From Patescibacteria group bacterium (GTDB taxonomy: Bacteria; Patescibacteriota; Minisyncoccia; Phycocordibacterales; JBBUBG01): a stretch of 37,498 nucleotides of DNA. The translations under genes and the position numbers were made by a program. Location: the NCBI GenBank assembly GCA_040384765.1, contig JAZKIQ010000001.1, positions 122,627 to 160,124 of the forward strand, given 5' to 3'. Below the pieces are notes generated by a model. That model had not been told where the DNA came from, searched no databases, and saw nothing but the letters and a program-made list of their open reading frames with translations. This document shows positions 7,568 through 15,601 of the stretch, piece after piece. Position 1 is the first letter of the stretch; every line of letters begins with the position of its first letter.

Positions 7568-8263
7568 CTACCGCCACTTCTTCACCACGAGACCTTGTCG
7601 AGCGGCCTCCTGCTCCGCTTCTTGCTTCGAAGGCCCCTTCGCCTCAACCACCAGCTCATTGCCGATATACAGACCGACAGTAAACGTTTTTGCATGATCT
7701 GGTCCCGACTCTGAAAGTACTTTATACGAGGGGGTGACGCCCGCTTTCTCCTGAGCTTTTTCCTGGAAAAAGCTTTTCGGGTCGTGCATGAGATTTCCCT
7801 CGAGGATCTCCTCTGTTTTTGGAATCAGATTTTTTGCAATAAAAAGCTGCGCGGCATCGTACCCCTGATCGAGGTAGATCGAACCGATAACCGACTCGAA
7901 CGTATTTGCGAGAATAAACTGGCGCGCGCGGCCTGTATCTTTTGCTTCACCCTTTGAAAGCAACAGATACTCATTGAGGCCAAGCGTCTGTGCAACGAGC
8001 GAAAGGGAGTTCGTATTCACGAGCGCACTACGGAGGCTTGTGAGCTCTCCCTCTGTCTTTTTAGGATACGAACGATACAGATGGTCAGTGATCACAAGCT
8101 CGAGTACTGCGTCCCCGAGAAACTCAAGCCGCTCATTATGAGCAAGCTTCACCTCGGGATGCTCGTTCAAATACGAACGATGAATAAACGCCTGTACAAG
8201 CGTATCTTTGTCCTTAAACACCACCCCCACGCAGGCCTCTATTTTTTCAAAATCTAGTGTCAT
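7568..8263 (-). CDS. rnc: Ribonuclease III
   Basis: HNERLEFLGDAVLEL signature, C-terminal dsRBD. Confidence 0.98.
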   Translation of the reverse strand: MTLDFEKIEACVGVVFKDKDTLVQAFIHRSYLNEHPEVKLAHNERLEFLGDAVLELVITDHLYRSYPKKTEGELTSLRSALVNTNSLSLVAQTLGLNEYLLLSKGEAKDTGRARQFILANTFESVIGSIYLDQGYDAAQLFIAKNLIPKTEEILEGNLMHDPKSFFQEKAQEKAGVTPSYKVLSESGPDHAKTFTVGLYIGNELVVEAKGPSKQEAEQEAARQGLVVKKWR

Positions 8264-8465: not shown

Positions 8466-9374
8466 TCATTTTTTTGAGATGATGCCAATTGCCTTTGCAA
8501 CAAGTGGCCGCACATCATCATACATGTCGAGATCCGCCACCTCCATCATCGGAAACCAGCGTGCATCATCGAGGCCGCCCGACTCCTTCAGATTCACCTC
8601 CTGCTTCGGGGAGTGAGCCACGAAGTACGATACTCGCTTACGAATCTTTCCCTTCTCCGGATCCGACGCGATATATTCGTTTACTCCGATAGACTCCTGT
8701 ACTTCTACAGGAAGCCCGATCTCCTCTTCTACCTCTTTGGCAGTACCCGCCTCGTCGGACATACCACCTTCTATGTGACCCTTGGGAAGAGTCCAGTAGC
8801 CGAAGATGTCGTGCACAAGCGCAATATACGTCTCCCCCCCGTCTCTCGCATACACAACAGCACCACCGAGCTTTTCAAGAGGAAGCTTTTCGCGCTCCTC
8901 GGGCGTGAGGTCATTCTTCTTCTTTTTCTTCTTGGTCGTCTCTTCCTTGCCTGGCTCGCCAATCTCTTTGTAGATAGTACCAAGCACGCCGTTTACAAAC
9001 TTTCCGGAAGTCTCGCCGCCGAACGTTTTTGCAAGCTCGATCGCCTCATTGATCGCCACTTTTGCTGGCACCTCGTTGCGGTCAGTGAAAAGAAGCTCGA
9101 AAAGCCCAATACGGAGGATGGTGCGGTCTACCGGCGCTATCTGAGCGATAGGCCACTCGGGAGCAGCTTTTACAATAATCTCATCAAGCTGAGGAACCTT
9201 CTCAAGAACATTCTGAGCAAGCGTTTCGATAAAGGTGCGGTCGGTTATGCCAGGGGCAAACTCTTCCGCAGTCCGAAACAGGATCTCGTGCAACCGCTCT
9301 TTGGTGTATCCATGAAAGTCGAGCTCAAAGAGCGACTGCATCACGATACTCCGTGAGAGATGTCTATTTGCCAT
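8466..9374 (-). CDS. nusB: NusB antitermination factor fused to C-terminal Nudix domain
   Basis: NusB motifs [29 protein letters not shown]; then WTLPKGHIE...KEVEEEIGL Nudix box. Confidence 0.92.
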
Positions 9375-10577: not shown

Positions 10578-11168
10578 TCAAATCCTCACAAACTCTTTCA
10601 AAAACGACCTCCGGTGACATGGCAAGAGGCCATGCGTACGAATAGCCTCGTAGTGGCGCGCGGTACCGTACCCCTTGTGCTTTTCAAACCCATACTCGGG
10701 GTGAGCTTTTCCGAGCTCGTTCAACCGTCGATCGCGAAGCACCTTGGCAGCGATCGAGGCCATTGCAATGACCGACTCCTTTGCATCGCCACCAATGATA
10801 GTTCGCTGGCGCAGATACTCTCTCGGCACAAAAAGTCCGCCATCAAGAAGCACTTCTGTGCTCGCAGGATCTACATGGAGCCGCTCTATGGCCGTATGCA
10901 CCGCACGGAGTGTGGCTTGTCTTATATTAATCCGGTCGATCACCTCTTCGCTCTGAAACGAGACGGTGAAGCGTAGTGTTTTTCGCTCGCACTCCTTTTC
11001 GATAAGCGAAAACCATTTCTCTCTTCCCTTCTCGGTAAGCTGTTTTGATTCCTTTACCCCTTCAAAAATCTTCATTGCCTCAGGATCCAAACAGGCAAGC
11101 GCGCACGCCGCCACCGGCCCCGCTATCGGCCCCCGACCTACTTCGTCTATTCCGACGAGAATACTCAT
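10578..11168 (-). CDS. rnhB: Ribonuclease HII
   Basis: GIDEVGRGPIAGPV, LLDG, ASIAAKVLRD, HKGYGT, HRRSF; TACAAT 6 nt before ATG. Confidence 0.97.
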   Translation of the reverse strand: MSILVGIDEVGRGPIAGPVAACALACLDPEAMKIFEGVKESKQLTEKGREKWFSLIEKECERKTLRFTVSFQSEEVIDRINIRQATLRAVHTAIERLHVDPASTEVLLDGGLFVPREYLRQRTIIGGDAKESVIAMASIAAKVLRDRRLNELGKAHPEYGFEKHKGYGTARHYEAIRTHGLLPCHRRSFLKEFVRI

Positions 11169-11182
11169 ATCGAGATTGTACC

Positions 11183-11223
11183 AAAAGAAAACTCCCGACC
11201 GCCTTCAGAGGGCGACCGGGAGT
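11183..11223 (-). terminator. Intrinsic terminator
   Basis: ACTCCCGGTCGCC-ctctgaa-GGCGGTCGGGAGT-TTTCTTTT on minus strand. Confidence 0.8.
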
Positions 11224-11671
11224 GGGCACTAGGAACTATGAGCCGTTGACACGACAGCTGTCAGGCTGCACTCGTGGAGTCGGCTCGGACTCGTAAAACT
11301 GGCTGCGCGTACCTACCCAGTGATCAACGCCGGATCAGCAAGCCGGAGGACTTGCATTACGACAATGGCCTTTGGCACAGCAGAGGCGGCAAACACCAGC
11401 AGGAAAGCAATCGCTCTCCACATGACGGAATTTCTAGCCCCGTTTAGGTCGAGCGTGCAGAGCTCGGAGCCTGCACAGCTTTCAGAGAGACCTTTCGGCC
11501 TCATGAGCGCAAATGCGACAACGAACCGTAGCGGGTTAGACCGCGCCTGGACCATTGCGCAACCCATACAAACACCAAGGAGGTGGTGGGCAGGGCATGC
11601 CATGTCGATCGAGGCTCTCCTCAGATTAAGGAACTCGTCGAGTATGACACCGACCTTTCCACTGCATGAGC
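11183..11671 (-). other. Candidate structured transcript C, possibly encoding a 36-aa hydrophobic peptide (11313-11423)
   Basis: TGcTATCTT extended -10 at 11678-11686, hairpins (GAGGCC-GAAA-GGTCTC; GTGCAG..CTGCAC), terminator at 11183. Confidence 0.35.
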
Positions 11672-11742
11672 AGAAGTAAGATAGCACGAATCCGGCAAAA
11701 AAGTGATGCTCCAACATTTCAGTCGCCAAATAGGGTCTAATT

Positions 11743-11777
11743 AAAAAGAGAACCCCAGACCGTTGCCGGTCTGGGGT
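11743..11777 (-). terminator. Intrinsic terminator (GCAA tetraloop)
   Basis: ACCCCAGACCG-GCAA-CGGTCTGGGGT-TCTCTTTTT on minus strand. Confidence 0.85.
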
Positions 11778-12122
11778 AGGTGTGTTAACGCGTCCAGCAC
11801 GCAGCTGGTACAGCGGGGCCCCACCGGGTGCCCTTGCAGGAATCCATCGCCCACCATCAGCCGAAGCGTCAGGGGGCATTGGGAATCAGGGGCTAATGCC
11901 CCTAATATTTACAAATTGGCTTAGGAGGAGTTCGCCTCCCTCGCCGGGTGGATGTTCAGCGCCAGCGAGGGAAGCAAGGGGTTTGCGAAGACATCAAAGA
12001 GAATGATATTCCGCAGGACCCCAGCGACCCCTCTGGTCGCTCTTTCCACGTTCCATACCTTCCTTTCACCAGCACCGCACCGCCCGCCTGTTGAGACGAA
12101 GCTTCTAGCGGCCAAGCTGATA
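11743..12122 (-). ncRNA. Candidate structured non-coding transcript B (~380 nt)
   Basis: Bounded by consensus-like promoter and terminator; successive hairpins; no convincing ORF (only a 20-codon SD-led one). Confidence 0.45.
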
Positions 12123-12128
12123 AAGTTT

Positions 12129-12156
12129 ATTTTAGCATGAATCAAATTTATGTCAA
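12129..12156 (-). promoter_or_regulatory. sigma70 promoter TTGACA-N16-TAAAAT with TG extension
   Basis: Direct match on minus strand in an AT-rich patch. Confidence 0.75.
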
Positions 12157-12204
12157 TAGCTTCGAAAAACCTTGTTTCCTGTCCACCTCCCCACAACCAC
12201 TAGT

Positions 12205-12315
12205 CCCCGAACGCCGTGCTCTTTTTAAAAGACTAGGGAGCGCGACTGGCGCGAGCTCGAGGAATTTTTTAGTAAAAAAATATCCGTACTTTTAAAAAGA
12301 GCACGGCGTTCGGGG
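12205..12315. mobile_element. MITE-like element with perfect 27-bp TIRs
   Basis: CCCCGAACGCCGTGCTCTTTTTAAAAG (12205-12231) and exact reverse complement (12289-12315). Confidence 0.75.
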
Positions 12316-12337
12316 CTTTGCTATAATCCCTCCATCT

Positions 12338-15300
12338 ATGGCCGACAAAGCACCTGAAATTCCAAAGGGACCGACCAAGCCAGGCTCAGATGGGCGCCTC
12401 CCCTTTGTCCACCTGCATACTCACTCGCACTACTCCCTTCTCGACGGACTTTCAAAAGTCGACGAGATGGTGAAGCTCGCCAAAAAATACGAGATGCCGG
12501 CCCTCGCGATTACCGACCACGGCAACATGTACGGCGCCGTCGAGTTTTATCAATACGCAAAAAAAGTAGGCATAAAGCCGATCATCGGCGTCGAGACATA
12601 CATAGCCAACCGCACCCGCTTCGATAAGCAGCCGGGCATCGACAACCAACGCTACCATCTCACCCTTCTTGCCAAAAACTTCACTGGCTACCAAAACCTC
12701 ATAAAAATGGTGACGGCTGCAAACCTCGAGGGCTACTACTATAAGCCGCGCATGGACAAGCAGCTCCTTCGCGACAATCACGAAGGGATTATTGCCCTCT
12801 CAGGCTGTCTCGGAGGTGAATTTTGCGACGCCCTCCGCAACAACGATGAAGAGAAAGCAAAGCAGGTAGCCCGCGAACACCAAGAGATCTTTGGGAAAGA
12901 GAACTACTTTCTCGAGATCATGCATCACCCAAACATCGAGGGGTTCAATGACGTAAAAGCAAAGATCATCAAGATGTCGAAAGAGCTCGACATACCGCTC
13001 GTAGCGACCCAAGATTCGCACTATCTCCACAAGGACGACGCGCGCGCCCAAGATGCGATGCTCTCGATCCAGACCAACAGCGACCTCACCCAGGTCGACC
13101 GCTTCACGATGTCCGACGAGGACTACCATTTCATCAACACCGATACTGCCTACAAGCATTTTGCTGAGTGCCCGGAAGCGGTCGAGCAGACCTCAAAGAT
13201 CGCCGATATGTGCGATGTCGAGATCCCCCTCGGCAAATGGTATTTCCCTGATCTGCGAACTGAGGATGGAAAAACCTTTGACGAGAAGCTTCGTGAGATC
13301 ACCTATGCAGGTATCGAAAAGCGAAAACTCGATCCAACCGACAAAGTGCTGCTCGACCGCATCGAGTACGAGCTTAAGATCATTCAGGACAAAGGGTACT
13401 CTCCGTATTTCCTCGTAGTGGCCGACCTCCTGCGGTACGCCGCCGAAAGCGGTATCTACACCAACATTCGAGGTTCTGTTGCAGGCTCTGTGGTTACTTA
13501 TCTCACCGGTATCACAAAAGTGCATCCGATCGAGTACAAGCTCCCGTTTGAGCGCTTTCTCAACCCCGAGCGTCCTTCCGCGCCTGATATCGATATGGAC
13601 TATGCGGACAACCGCCGAGACGAGATGCTCGACTATGTGCGCAACAAATACGGCGCGGACAAAGTAGCCCAGCTCGGCACCTTTGGTACCATGATGGCCC
13701 GCGGCGCTGTGCGCGATGTGGCGCGAGCTCTTGGGCACCCGTACGCAATTGGCGACCGCATCTCAAAGATGATCCCTATGGGCTCCCAGGGCTTTCCTAT
13801 GACAATCGACCACGCAATGGAGCTTATGCCTGAGCTCCGAGATGCGTACGAAAAAGAGGCCGACACCAAAGAGATCATAGACCTCGCCAAAAAAGTCGAG
13901 GGGTGCGTGCGGCACGTATCGGTGCACGCAGCGGGCGTTGTTATTTCGCCAACCCCCCTTACCGACTTCACCCCAACACAGCTCGATCCAAAGGGAGGCA
14001 AAGTGATCACCCAGTACGACATGTATGTCATCGAAGATGTCGGCCTTCTGAAGTACGATTTTCTTGGCATTCGAAACCTCGCAATTTTGCGTGACGCAGT
14101 GCGCATTGTAAAAAGAACCCACGACGTTGATATCGACATCGAGGATATTCCACTCGATGACAAGAAAACGTTCGGCATGCTCGCACGCGGCGAAACAATG
14201 GGCCTCTTTCAGCTCAACGGTTCGGGGATGACGAAATATTTGAAGGAGCTCAAGCCAACCACGATCCACGACATCAACGCTATGGTGGCGCTCTACCGCC
14301 CGGGACCGATCGAAATGATCCCGGAGTATATCAAGCGCAAACACAATCCAAAGCTGATCTCATACCTCGATCCGCGCCTCGAGCCGATCCTTGATGCCTC
14401 GTTCGGAGTGATCACGTACCAAGACGATGTTATGTTGACCGCTATTCACCTTGCAGGATACTCATGGCTCGAGGCAGACAAGCTGCGCAAGGCGATGGGA
14501 AAGAAAATTCCCGAGGAGATGGAGGCGCAAAAAACAAAGCTCCTCGAAGGCTTCGAAAAGAATGGGCTTTCAAAAGAGAAGTCTATGGAGCTTTGGACCT
14601 TGATCGAGCCGTTTGCAGCGTACGGATTCAACAAGGCACATGCTGCCTCCTATGGCCGCGTCGCCTACCAGACGGCGTACATGAAGGCGAACTATCCTGG
14701 TGAATATATGACCGCAGTACTCTCGGCAGAAGCAGGAGACGTAGAGGAGGTGTCTGCCGTGGTGGAGGAGTGCAAGCGCATGCAGATCCCCGTACTCCCC
14801 CCAGATATCAACGAATCGTATAGCGACTTCACGGTGATCAAAGCAACCACCGGCGCCATAGAAGGGACTCCAGAAAACGTGGATCGCATCCGGTTCGGTC
14901 TTTATACAATTAAGAACTTCGGCGCAGATATTGGAGACGCAATCATCAAGGAGCGTACCGAAAGTGGAAAATTTACCTCATATTCAAATCTACTGGAGCG
15001 TATTCACCATAAGGGCCTTAACAAAAAATCTCTTGAGGCCCTGATCAAGACAGGAGCCCTCGATGCTTTTGGAGAGCGCGGAGCCTTTCTCGCCAATATG
15101 GATGAAGCGCTCGCGTATCATAAAGATGCGATTGCAGAAAAATCACAAGATTCACTTTTTAGCCTCTTCGGCGAGGCGGATACGAAAGCACTTCCCGGCC
15201 TCAAGCTCAAACCCGCAGAACCCGCTGCAATGATGGAAAAGCTCACTTGGGAGAAGGAGCTGCTTGGCCTGTACGTTTCGGGCCATCCACTCGATCGCTA

Positions 15301-15601
15301 TCGAGATAAATTCAAAGAGGAGAACAGTATTAAAGCGGCCAAAGAGCTTGGCAATGGCCGACCAGCTATTATCGCAGGGCTGGTGACAGAAATACGTCCT
15401 ATTATTACCAAAAAGGGCGACCAGATGGCGTTTGTGAAGATCGCAGACTTTACGGATATGATAGAGGTCGTCCTTTTTCCTCGCACCTATGCAGAGTGCA
15501 AGGCCACCCTTGTCCCTGAAGCGTGCGTCGCAATACGCGGCTCTATCTCAAATCGCAACGATGAGATGTCGCTGATCGGCGAAGCAATAAAGATCCTGTA
15601 G
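12338..15601 (+). CDS. dnaE: DNA polymerase III alpha subunit
   Basis: PHP HLHTHSHYSLLDG, FERFLNPER, PDIDMD, YGFNKAHAASY, C-terminal OB fold; TGcTATAAT upstream. Confidence 0.98.
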   Translation: MADKAPEIPKGPTKPGSDGRLPFVHLHTHSHYSLLDGLSKVDEMVKLAKKYEMPALAITDHGNMYGAVEFYQYAKKVGIKPIIGVETYIANRTRFDKQPGIDNQRYHLTLLAKNFTGYQNLIKMVTAANLEGYYYKPRMDKQLLRDNHEGIIALSGCLGGEFCDALRNNDEEKAKQVAREHQEIFGKENYFLEIMHHPNIEGFNDVKAKIIKMSKELDIPLVATQDSHYLHKDDARAQDAMLSIQTNSDLTQVDRFTMSDEDYHFINTDTAYKHFAECPEAVEQTSKIADMCDVEIPLGKWYFPDLRTEDGKTFDEKLREITYAGIEKRKLDPTDKVLLDRIEYELKIIQDKGYSPYFLVVADLLRYAAESGIYTNIRGSVAGSVVTYLTGITKVHPIEYKLPFERFLNPERPSAPDIDMDYADNRRDEMLDYVRNKYGADKVAQLGTFGTMMARGAVRDVARALGHPYAIGDRISKMIPMGSQGFPMTIDHAMELMPELRDAYEKEADTKEIIDLAKKVEGCVRHVSVHAAGVVISPTPLTDFTPTQLDPKGGKVITQYDMYVIEDVGLLKYDFLGIRNLAILRDAVRIVKRTHDVDIDIEDIPLDDKKTFGMLARGETMGLFQLNGSGMTKYLKELKPTTIHDINAMVALYRPGPIEMIPEYIKRKHNPKLISYLDPRLEPILDASFGVITYQDDVMLTAIHLAGYSWLEADKLRKAMGKKIPEEMEAQKTKLLEGFEKNGLSKEKSMELWTLIEPFAAYGFNKAHAASYGRVAYQTAYMKANYPGEYMTAVLSAEAGDVEEVSAVVEECKRMQIPVLPPDINESYSDFTVIKATTGAIEGTPENVDRIRFGLYTIKNFGADIGDAIIKERTESGKFTSYSNLLERIHHKGLNKKSLEALIKTGALDAFGERGAFLANMDEALAYHKDAIAEKSQDSLFSLFGEADTKALPGLKLKPAEPAAMMEKLTWEKELLGLYVSGHPLDRYRDKFKEENSIKAAKELGNGRPAIIAGLVTEIRPIITKKGDQMAFVKIADFTDMIEVVLFPRTYAECKATLVPEACVAIRGSISNRNDEMSLIGEAIKIL

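What the first reader, a model, noticed from the sequence alone, without database searches (positions are those of the whole stretch)
11743..12156. Candidate new structured ncRNA B between rnhB and dnaE
Seen: TTGACA-N16-TAAAAT, then about 380 nt of back-to-back stems, then a textbook GCAA-loop terminator. The stems are AGCGACC/GGTCGCT, GGGGT..TGCG..ATCA/TGAT..CGCA..ACCCC, GCTTCCCTCGCTGG/CCGGCGAGGGAGGC, GGGGCATT/AATGCCCC and CCAGC/GCTGG. Several use G-U pairs that work on this strand only. The only SD-led ORF is 20 codons (from 12056). In a gene-dense genome, about 1 kb lacking proteins but holding two tandem terminated units suggests functional RNAs. Together with unit A, these could be an undescribed CPR ncRNA class.
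Basis: partly seen in the sequence, partly recalled or inferred. Interest (0 to 1): 0.75.

Follow-up and report, generated by a model that had tools for sequence, protein, structure and literature searches.

The report
Orphan structured RNA gene candidate
A 380-base stretch between two housekeeping genes of a very small bacterial genome looks like a self-contained gene for a tightly folded RNA, but apart from one closely related strain nothing like it was found anywhere, so it is a plausible yet unproven lineage-specific RNA of unknown role.

Summary
On the minus strand there is a near-consensus promoter (12156-12129), about 378 nt of very stable predicted structure, and a strong GCAA-loop terminator (11777-11752). 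The fold is stronger than 100 of 100 shuffles (z -6.05) and than 99.6% of 498 GC-corrected windows from the same genome.

No Rfam family matches. RNase P RNA and tmRNA lie elsewhere in the genome, and their genes have the same promoter/terminator layout as unit B. No ORF in the unit has a credible homologue or native codon usage.

A related strain in one metagenome run keeps the unit at 4.4% divergence. Neighbouring pieces diverge by 9-11%, and rnhB differences fall at third codon positions, which suggests constraint on unit B.

The "new CPR ncRNA class" is not supported. BLASTN over 400 genomes of the order, a covariance model over 150, nhmmer over 145 syntenic or related loci, and phage, plasmid and pattern scans found no homologue. 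No RNA run was available, and covariation could not be tested.

Best reading (about 0.5): a stand-alone, lineage-restricted structured ncRNA sitting in a variable rnhB-dnaE hotspot. Rivals are a small-protein mRNA, an inert insert, or a leader.

The neighbouring 85-nt hairpin repeat is the stronger lead. It shows covariation and occurs in 71 of 151 order genomes.

The parts
12129..12156 (-). Promoter of unit B: -35 TTGACA (12156-12151), 16-nt spacer with TG at 12137-12136, -10 TAAAAT (12134-12129)
   Evidence: 11 of 12 matches, TG present. It is one of only 8 such sites in the genome, with 0 in the reversed null. The RNase P RNA and tmRNA genes of this genome have the same -35/N16/-10 layout.
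11745..12122 (-). Predicted unit B transcript, about 378 nt. The start is inferred 7-8 nt after the -10 and the end in the T tail. Neither end was mapped.
   Evidence: The ends are inference only, because no RNA data exist.
12065..12124 (-). 5' hairpin (RNA 2-61)
   Evidence: MFE helices with pair probabilities 0.81-0.98.
12047..12060 (-). 5' strand of the long-range closing stem (RNA 66-79). It holds AGGU-AUG and the GTG at 12049, and pairs with 11792-11778 just upstream of the terminator.
   Evidence: probabilities 0.87-0.92. ORF starts.
11932..12041 (-). Three adjacent hairpins (RNA 85-103, 104-148, 149-194), including a 16-bp G+C-rich stem
   Evidence: probabilities 0.98-0.99. This stretch was used for covariance model R1.
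11907..11931 (-). Longest predicted single-stranded stretch (RNA 195-219), CU-rich (contains CUCCUCC)
   Evidence: Unpaired in both the MFE and the centroid fold. A role in pairing is inferred.
11794..11906 (-). 3' hairpin set (RNA 220-332), including a C-G-closed UUCG tetraloop at 11865-11862
11743..11777 (-). Intrinsic terminator of unit B: 11-bp stem, GCAA loop, T-rich tail
   Evidence: Pair probability 0.98.
11181..11686 (-). Unit A: possible extended -10 (TGCTATCTT, 11686-11678; read by eye), about 490 nt, terminator 11223-11191. It contains an ORF that a gene caller called as 134 aa, with no homologues.
   Evidence: Terminator. Fold z -2.78. Only the window's own protein was found among 5.8 billion. 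Codon-usage likelihood ratio is 0.03. A 2-nt deletion at 11543 in the related strain breaks that frame.
12202..12317 (.). Copy of a repeated 85-nt three-way-junction hairpin element with 27-bp perfect arms. It lies between the unit B promoter and the dnaE promoter.
10578..11168 (-). rnhB (RNase HII). Its extended -10 (TGGTACAAT, 11183-11175) ends 6 nt before the ATG, so the mRNA is probably leaderless.
   Evidence: Pfam PF01351, E 7.3e-38. The promoter was read from the sequence. The motif class is enriched 4-12 nt before starts (41 of 435 against 3 in the control window).
12338..15601 (+). dnaE (DNA polymerase III alpha). Its extended -10 (TGCTATAAT, 12319-12327) lies directly after the hairpin element.
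   Evidence: Pfam PF07733, PF02811 and PF17657. Sequence.

Best explanation
Unit B is an independent gene for a structured non-coding RNA of about 378 nt, restricted to this organism and its near relatives. It lies in a variable insertion hotspot between the divergent rnhB and dnaE genes.

Shown:
- A near-consensus sigma-70-type promoter and a strong intrinsic terminator bracket the unit.
- The predicted fold is unusually stable and specific to this strand.
- There is no credible coding frame and no known RNA family match.
- The one related strain seen diverges less here than in flanking DNA.

Inferred:
- The RNA is made from about 12122 to about 11745.
- It folds into a 5' hairpin plus a closed multi-helix domain.
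- It acts as RNA in trans. The most likely routes are its exposed 25-nt CU-rich linker and loops (base pairing) or service as a protein-binding scaffold.

The specific target or partner is unknown.
For: - Promoter: 11 of 12 matches with TG, one of 8 such sites in 822,710 bases against 0 in the null. The other 7 precede real genes such as ClpB and a cold-shock protein.
- The two confirmed stable-RNA genes of this genome, RNase P RNA and tmRNA, have the same -35/N16/-10 plus terminator layout.
- Many protein genes here instead have an extended -10 4-12 nt before the start codon (41 of 435 against 3).
- Fold: z -6.05 against shuffles. GC-corrected residual z -3.27, with 0.4% of 498 genomic windows as low. 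Helix probabilities are mostly 0.9-0.99. There is a C-G-closed UUCG loop and a GNRA loop, and 14 G-U pairs favour this strand.
- GC is 0.585 against 0.517 for the genome and 0.494 for ORF-free gaps.
- Coding: 0 Pfam families for 8 ORFs. No homologue for the 91-, 188- or 42-aa ORFs among 5.8 billion proteins. Codon-usage likelihood ratios are 0.03-0.32. There is no AUG at the predicted 5' end.
- Related strain in run X2: 23 substitutions in 518 nt (11740-12257). The same contig shows 20 in 201 nt (11494-11694; Fisher p 0.008), and the rnhB-containing pieces show 38 in 382 (p 0.0018).
- 10 of the 11 listed rnhB differences fall at third codon positions (my count). Near-neutral sites have therefore diverged by 20% or more.
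- Indels of +1, +1 and +2 nt lie inside the unit. A 45-nt deletion removes only the spacer after its terminator.
Against: - No expression data: no RNA run holds the stretch (this is a blank, not evidence).
- No homologue beyond one strain, so no covariation test. A predicted fold of a single sequence is not proof of a functional structure.
- The conservation signal rests on one low-depth contig (3.6x). It includes the promoter and half of the hairpin element, and the positions of its 23 substitutions were not displayed.
- Low divergence could also come from recent exchange of this segment between strains.
- Two of the three indels (+2 after 11993, +1 after 11977) sum to 3 and lie inside the 42/64-codon frame. 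The third lies after its stop. A small protein is therefore not excluded.
- The insert sits in a hotspot where 5 of 26 syntenic relatives carry unrelated 777-901-bp inserts. This would also fit junk or mobile DNA.
Confidence: 0.5

Rival explanations
1. Unit B is the mRNA of a small protein: 42 aa from GTG 12049 (or 64 aa from TTG 12115, or 20 aa from ATG 12056), with a structured 3' part. The start region is paired with the 3' end of the RNA, as in fold-back-inhibited type I toxin mRNAs.
For: - The purine-rich AAGGAAGG lies 8 nt before GTG 12049.
- In the MFE the start region (RNA 66-79) pairs with RNA 334-348, just before the terminator.
- The related strain's indels inside this frame sum to +3, and the third indel lies after its stop.
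- The peptide has a moderately hydrophobic middle.
- Low divergence would fit this reading too.
Against: - Codon-usage likelihood ratio (coding over non-coding) is 0.32 for 42 aa, 0.03 for 64 aa and 0.91 for 20 aa.
- SD-like motifs are not enriched before start codons in this genome (52 against 46 of 435), so the motif carries little weight.
- There is no AUG at the 5' end for leaderless translation.
- No homologue was found, and the frame was not called in any assembly searched.
- The paired indels would replace 6 residues of the hydrophobic core with 7 different ones (my reading).
- No plus-strand promoter for an antisense RNA was found.
- The six hits of the exhaustive protein search are giant repeat proteins. 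Each repeat scores only 25-28 bits, and Pfam found no HYR domain in the ORF.
Confidence: 0.12
2. The 1.17-kb gap is decaying or selfish inserted DNA in an insertion hotspot. The promoter, terminator and stems are leftovers or chance, and the RNA, if made, has no function.
For: - Among 27 loci with both genes, 21 have gaps of 0-272 bp and 5 have 777-901-bp gaps with mutually unrelated ORFs, one of them a PaaX/Cas2-like protein.
- A mobile-looking hairpin repeat sits in the same gap.
- Units A and B have no homologues anywhere.
- GC is atypical for the genome.
Against: - Neutral DNA should have diverged like the third codon positions of rnhB (10 or more of about 50). The unit B region shows 4.4%.
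- A chance combination of one of 8 consensus promoters, a top-0.4% fold and a strong terminator, all in the right order and on one strand, is unlikely.
- No similarity to phage or plasmid records.
Confidence: 0.18
3. Unit B is a long cis-acting leader or attenuator. Its terminator controls read-through into unit A and rnhB.
For: - It is on the same strand as, and directly upstream of, unit A and rnhB.
- CUGGGGU at RNA 99-105 could pair with the 5' arm of the terminator as an alternative structure (my reading).
Against: - No riboswitch, T-box or leader family matched at E up to 10.
- rnhB has its own extended -10 6 nt before its ATG, kept in the related strain, and a second terminator lies in between.
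- In 21 of 26 syntenic relatives rnhB has at most 272 bp upstream.
- Unit A has no credible gene to regulate.
Confidence: 0.07

Closest known systems
Housekeeping stable-RNA genes of the same genome (RNase P RNA, RF00010; tmRNA, RF00023)
   Same: Similar size (338-395 nt). Same gene layout: -35, 16-nt spacer, -10, then a strong intrinsic terminator right after the RNA. G+C-rich, stable fold.
   Different: No covariance-model match in the window. The genuine copies lie on other contigs. Unit B is not conserved in other genomes, whereas those RNAs are universal.
Large structured bacterial ncRNAs of unknown or recently found function (OLE, GOLLD, ROOL, raiA; names recalled, and I take them to be among the Rfam families searched)
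   Same: Several hundred nucleotides, multi-helix, own promoter and terminator, no coding role, function not obvious from context.
   Different: Those classes are defined by covariation over many genomes. Unit B has one near-identical relative and no hit to any of 4227 Rfam models at the gathering score, nor to any at E up to 10 within its body.
Trans-acting base-pairing sRNAs with C/U-rich seed regions (general class; recalled)
   Same: Stand-alone intergenic gene, terminator hairpin, exposed CU-rich stretch (11931-11907).
   Different: Unit B is three to four times longer than typical sRNAs. SD-like motifs are not enriched before start codons here, which weakens an anti-SD mode. No target was tested.
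Type I toxin mRNAs with fold-back inhibition (hok-like; recalled)
   Same: In the MFE, long-range pairing of the start region with the 3' end. A short ORF with a partly hydrophobic product.
   Different: No antisense promoter was found. The peptide is not clearly a membrane helix. Codon usage and SD statistics do not support translation.

Membership tests
RNase P RNA (RF00010) | Match to the covariance model with conserved core helices | tested here: not met
   No match in the window at the gathering score, nor at E up to 10 in 11100-12400. The genome's copy is at C3:24776-25113, 114.9 bits.
tmRNA (RF00023) | tRNA-like domain plus tag reading frame | tested here: not met
   ARAGORN found 0 in the window. 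Rfam found no match. The genome's copy is at C6:10733-11127, 119.6 bits.
6S RNA (RF00013) | About 180-200 nt rod with a large central bubble; covariance-model match | tested here: not met
   No match in the whole genome at E up to 10. The unit B fold is multi-branched and twice as long.
SRP RNA (RF00169, RF01854) | Helix 8 motif; covariance-model match | tested here: not met
   No match in the window or in the genome. Unit B is not conserved in relatives, as an SRP RNA would be.
Stand-alone bacterial ncRNA gene (generic kind) | Own promoter and own terminator on one strand | tested here: met
   (consensus matches; not mapped experimentally).
Stand-alone bacterial ncRNA gene (generic kind) | No protein-coding function | tested here: inconclusive
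   No homologues or domains and poor codon usage. However, the indels in the related strain are compatible with the 42-codon frame.
Stand-alone bacterial ncRNA gene (generic kind) | Transcript detected with defined ends | not testable with these tools
   No RNA run holds the stretch. The runs laid are DNA contigs.
Structured RNA class (Rfam-type family) | Homologues in several genomes with covarying base pairs | tested here: not met
   No homologue in 40 relatives, 3 family genomes, 400 order genomes (BLASTN), 150 order genomes (covariance model R1) or 145 loci (nhmmer). Covariation is therefore untestable.
Type I toxin-antitoxin | Small hydrophobic toxin ORF plus an overlapping or adjacent antisense RNA | tested here: not met
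   No plus-strand promoter-like site in 10900-12500. The ORF has weak support.
Riboswitch / T-box / ribosomal-protein leader | Known aptamer or leader model, with a regulated gene directly downstream | tested here: not met
   No such Rfam match at E up to 10. The downstream unit A has no credible gene, and rnhB has its own promoter.

The most novel reading that the evidence does not exclude
Unit B is a large accessory RNA gene: a folded RNA of about 380 nt carried as cargo in a variable hotspot of an ultra-small, host-dependent bacterium. Relatives carry small accessory proteins, including a Cas2-like one, at the same place. It would act in strain-specific functions such as defence or host interaction, and would be the first member of an RNA family that current genome sampling is too thin to reveal.
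Probability: 0.1. Interest if true: 0.6.

Novelty: new member of a known kind. Interest (0 to 1): 0.35.

Why it matters
If real, unit B would be one of very few candidate regulatory or structural RNAs proposed for ultra-small bacteria with reduced genomes, where every retained kilobase is expected to matter. It would also show that RNA genes, not only protein genes, occupy variable hotspots.

On present evidence it is a single-lineage candidate without expression or covariation support. Its value is as a target for metatranscriptomics, not as a new class.

The work also turned up an order-wide, covariation-supported 85-nt repeat element next to it. That element is a better-founded lead for a new structured element.

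Tried and rejected
Known RNA families:
- Rfam at the gathering score over the whole window gave 0 matches.
- At E up to 10 over 11100-12400 there were 4 matches. Two are microRNA models on the hairpin element, one is a viral 3'UTR model on the terminator, and one is NsiR4 in unit A at 13.4 bits against a cut-off of 40. All were rejected.
- tRNA/tmRNA scan of the window: 0.

Homologues by DNA:
- Own genome and 40 relatives: only the hairpin recurs.
- Family: 3 other genomes, best E 0.4.
- Order: 400 genomes. 8 gave matches of 24-41 nt. I fetched 5 of these 8. All lie in long open frames of 98-400 aa on differing strands and frames, so they are chance matches. The other 3 match the promoter part and were not fetched.
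- Phage and plasmid collections: no match.
- Exact-pattern scans of genome contigs (2) and viral contigs (1): 0 matches. Records of the own genome may be left out there.
- Metagenome loci fetched through RnhB: 80 loci, best 54% identity, none with unit B by nhmmer.
- Covariance model R1 was built from the window's sequence alone, so its sensitivity is low. It found the own genome only among 151.

Proteins:
- Pfam gave 0 families for 8 ORFs. PHROGs gave two weak rows (E 0.17 and 0.018), rejected.
- Three searches of 5.8 billion proteins found only the window's own 134-aa call.
- The exhaustive search with the 64-aa frame gave 6 hits, all proteins of 776-2920 aa with 4-22 matched stretches. For the best hit, each repeat aligns at 25-28 bits (15-17 identities per 39-53-column alignment) to an HYR-like repeat. 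I read this as score summed over near-identical repeats, not homology.

Other checks:
- Unit B against unit A duplex gave -249.4 kcal/mol against a shuffled mean of -253.6, so no signal. The method is ill-suited to long RNAs, and the script hit its time limit after printing.
- I looked for a similar unit next to another hairpin copy (C3:7700-8900). A 267-aa ORF fills that space, so there is no parallel.
- No RNA holder was listed for the stretch.
- Literature: five searches found nothing on such RNAs or repeats in these bacteria. I saw search listings only, plus one passage of PMC8321541, which was irrelevant. Supplementary files were not consulted.

Full report
**What is there**

The window's 1169-bp gap (11169-12337) lies between two divergent genes. 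rnhB (10578-11168, minus strand) matches Pfam RNase_HII at E 7.3e-38. dnaE (12338-15601, plus strand) matches DNA_pol3_alpha, PHP and the finger domain.

On the minus strand the consensus scan finds TTGACA-16-TAAAAT with TG before the -10 (12156->12129; 11 of 12 matches). It also finds two intrinsic terminators, at 11777->11752 (11 pairs, GCAA loop, T tail) and at 11223->11191. Unit B is the stretch from the promoter to the first terminator. Unit A is the stretch from there to the second.

**Is it more than chance?**

The 383-nt minus strand folds to -183.3 kcal/mol against -146.5 +/- 6.1 for 100 dinucleotide shuffles (z -6.05; none as low). The plus strand gives -157.0 (z -3.48).

Against a harder null of 498 random 383-nt windows from the same genome, regressed on GC, the residual z is -3.27 and 0.4% of windows are as low. 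The genome's own RNase P RNA and tmRNA score -1.71 and -1.54.

The fifth is an alternative that costs 11.2 kcal/mol. 14 of the 125 pairs are G-U. One hairpin has a C-G-closed UUCG loop, and the terminator has a GNRA loop.

The promoter is unusual for this genome. Only 8 sites of the form TTGACA-N16-18-TAnAAT exist in 822,710 bases, and none in the reversed sequence. The other seven sit 50-155 nt upstream of protein ORFs. These include a ClpB-type ATPase, a cold-shock protein and a transglycosylase.

The RNase P RNA and tmRNA genes have the same -35/16-nt/-10 layout, followed by a strong terminator. Many protein genes instead carry an extended -10 that ends 4-12 nt before the start codon (41 of 435, against 3 in a control window). 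They show no enrichment of SD-like motifs (52 against 46 of 435). In its gene layout, unit B therefore resembles this genome's stable-RNA genes.

**What it is not**

No Rfam family reaches its gathering score anywhere in the window. At E up to 10 nothing matches the body of unit B. ARAGORN finds nothing in the window.

RNase P RNA and tmRNA are on other contigs. 6S and SRP RNA models match nothing in the genome.

Eight ORFs of the gap have no Pfam family at E up to 1. Searches of 5.8 billion proteins with the 91-, 188- and 42-aa frames found only the window's own 134-aa call in unit A.

The exhaustive search with the 64-aa frame returned six giant repeat proteins. Their scores come from summing many repeats, which in the best hit score 25-28 bits each, and I reject them.

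Codon usage gives likelihood ratios (coding over stop-free non-coding frames) of 0.32 for 42 aa, 0.03 for 64 aa and 0.03 for the 134-aa call.

**Relatives**

The divergent rnhB-dnaE pair is kept in 27 of 30 loci examined, own genome included. Twenty-one have gaps of 0-272 bp. Five have gaps of 777-901 bp with mutually unrelated ORFs, one of them a PaaX/Cas2-like protein. The own gap is the longest. The site is therefore a variable hotspot.

Units A and B were not found anywhere else:
- BLASTN of 40 relatives
- the 3 other genomes of the family
- 400 genomes of the order, with only 24-41-nt chance matches in 8; 5 were inspected and all lie in unrelated ORFs
- a single-sequence covariance model over 150 order genomes
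- nhmmer over 145 loci
- phage and plasmid records
- pattern scans

The closest RnhB in the JGI/ENA metagenome contigs is 54% identical. The lineage is simply poorly sampled.

**The one related strain**

Two DNA runs of one study hold the stretch. X1 carries it without differences and may be the source sample.

X2 carries a relative. One 722-base contig covers 11494-11694 with 20 substitutions and a 2-nt deletion. It also covers 11740-12257 with 23 substitutions and three insertions (+1, +1, +2). It skips 11695-11739.

The unit B part is thus 4.4% diverged. The unit A part of the same contig is 10.0% diverged (Fisher p 0.008). The two rnhB-containing pieces are 9.9% diverged (p 0.0018).

Ten of the 11 listed rnhB differences fall at third codon positions (my count). 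Near-neutral sites are therefore at least 20% diverged.

This is the best evidence that unit B is under constraint. It is one low-depth contig, and the positions of its substitutions inside unit B were not shown.

The indels cut both ways. They rule out long frames across the unit, and the 2-nt deletion breaks the unit A ORF. But the +2 and +1 insertions, 16 nt apart, sum to 3 inside the 42/64-codon frame, and the third lies beyond its stop.

**Mechanism**

I commit to an independently transcribed, trans-acting structured RNA at about 0.5. Its predicted architecture has four parts:
- a 5' hairpin
- a multi-helix domain closed by pairing of RNA 66-79 with 334-348
- a 25-nt exposed CU-rich linker
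- the terminator

Whether it pairs with other RNAs or binds a protein is inference only.

The rivals are a small-protein mRNA (0.12), inert inserted DNA (0.18) and a cis leader (0.07).

**Comparison and novelty**

Unit B works like, and is built like, a stable-RNA gene, but it belongs to no known family. Without a second lineage it cannot be called a class. I file it as a new, unvalidated member of the general kind "stand-alone bacterial ncRNA gene".

**By-products**

The hairpin at 12202-12317 is one of 17 copies in this genome of an 85-nt element. It consists of a conserved centre of about 57 nt (two small hairpins, one with tandem G.A pairs and one with a bulged A) on a long outer stem. That stem is near-perfectly paired within each copy, and its outer part differs in sequence between copies.

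On 19 copies from 7 genomes, 94.6% of cells pair against 72.8% in shuffles. 24 of the 33 pairs change on both sides, and 0 of 500 shuffles reach the covariation score.

A covariance model finds the element in 71 of 151 genomes of the order (up to 29 copies), but in only 5 of 151 in a phylum-wide sample, own genome included in both counts. Rfam has nothing for it.

All 13 own copies checked are intergenic. One copy in another genome lies among 23S rRNA pieces and group I intron matches.

Templated repair of quasi-palindromes could keep the arms perfect without selection. The conserved mismatches argue for a recognised structure.

Separately, no SRP54-type GTPase, Ffh M domain or SRP RNA was found in the genome. 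None was found above the cut-off in 60 phylum genomes either. That result is so sweeping that I suspect a blind spot of the search.

Noticed in passing
window 12202-12317; own genome copies e.g. C6:33931-34015, C4:96267-96351, C3:7887-7971; loci L002-L025: A repeated 85-nt three-way-junction hairpin element. The centre is conserved, and the long outer stem is near-perfectly paired within each copy, its outer part differing in sequence between copies. Covariation is strong (94.6% of cells paired against 72.8% shuffled; 24 of 33 pairs change on both sides; 0 of 500 shuffles reach the score). There are 17 copies in this genome. It was found in 71 of 151 genomes of the order and 5 of 151 phylum-wide (own genome included in both counts). 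No Rfam match. It could be a mobile element or a new structured RNA or DNA motif.
   Followed up: partly
whole genome G000 and 80 sampled genomes of its order and phylum: No SRP RNA (RF00169, RF01854), no SRP54 GTPase domain (PF00448) and no Ffh M domain (PF02978) in the own genome. The only DTAGR motif is in a short L31-like frame (identified by eye). RF00169 was found in 1 of 20 relatives. PF00448 was over its cut-off in at most 1 of 20 relatives (a 41-position P-loop match) and in 0 of 60 phylum genomes. Either this is a blind spot of the search in these genomes or a remarkable loss; I suspect the former.
   Followed up: partly
genome-wide; examples at window 11175-11183 (rnhB) and 12319-12327 (dnaE): Extended -10 motifs (TGnTAnnnT) end 4-12 nt before the start codon in 41 of 435 long ORFs, against 3 in a control window. 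SD-like motifs are not enriched (52 against 46). Leaderless or near-leaderless mRNAs seem common.
   Followed up: partly
rnhB-dnaE gaps in L043, L046, L050, L057, L064: The rnhB-dnaE intergenic site is a variable hotspot. Five of 26 syntenic relatives hold 777-901-bp inserts with unrelated ORFs, one of them a PaaX central Cas2-like domain protein. G022 also has a hairpin-element copy right next to its dnaE start.
   Followed up: partly
window 11181-11742 (minus strand): Unit A: a second terminated unit with a gene-caller ORF of 134 aa that has no homologue. Codon-usage likelihood ratio is 0.03. A frame-breaking 2-nt deletion is present in the related strain. The fold is modest (z -2.78) and divergence is 5.6-10%.
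   Followed up: partly
L015 (G018:C5:1-2656): A 23S rRNA gene in pieces, with two group I intron matches below the gathering score (38.3 and 22.7 bits) and a hairpin-element copy at 1095-1179 between them. 5S rRNA lies downstream.
   Followed up: no
window 8466-9374 (minus strand): One 302-aa ORF combines a NusB domain (residues 7-136) and a NUDIX domain (173-293). An RNase III gene lies next to it at 7568-8263.
   Followed up: no
G000:C1:122617-122626 and 160125-160167: The window is bounded on both sides by runs of N (10 and 43). The assembly has 18 such runs. No SSU rRNA match was found in the assembly.
   Followed up: no
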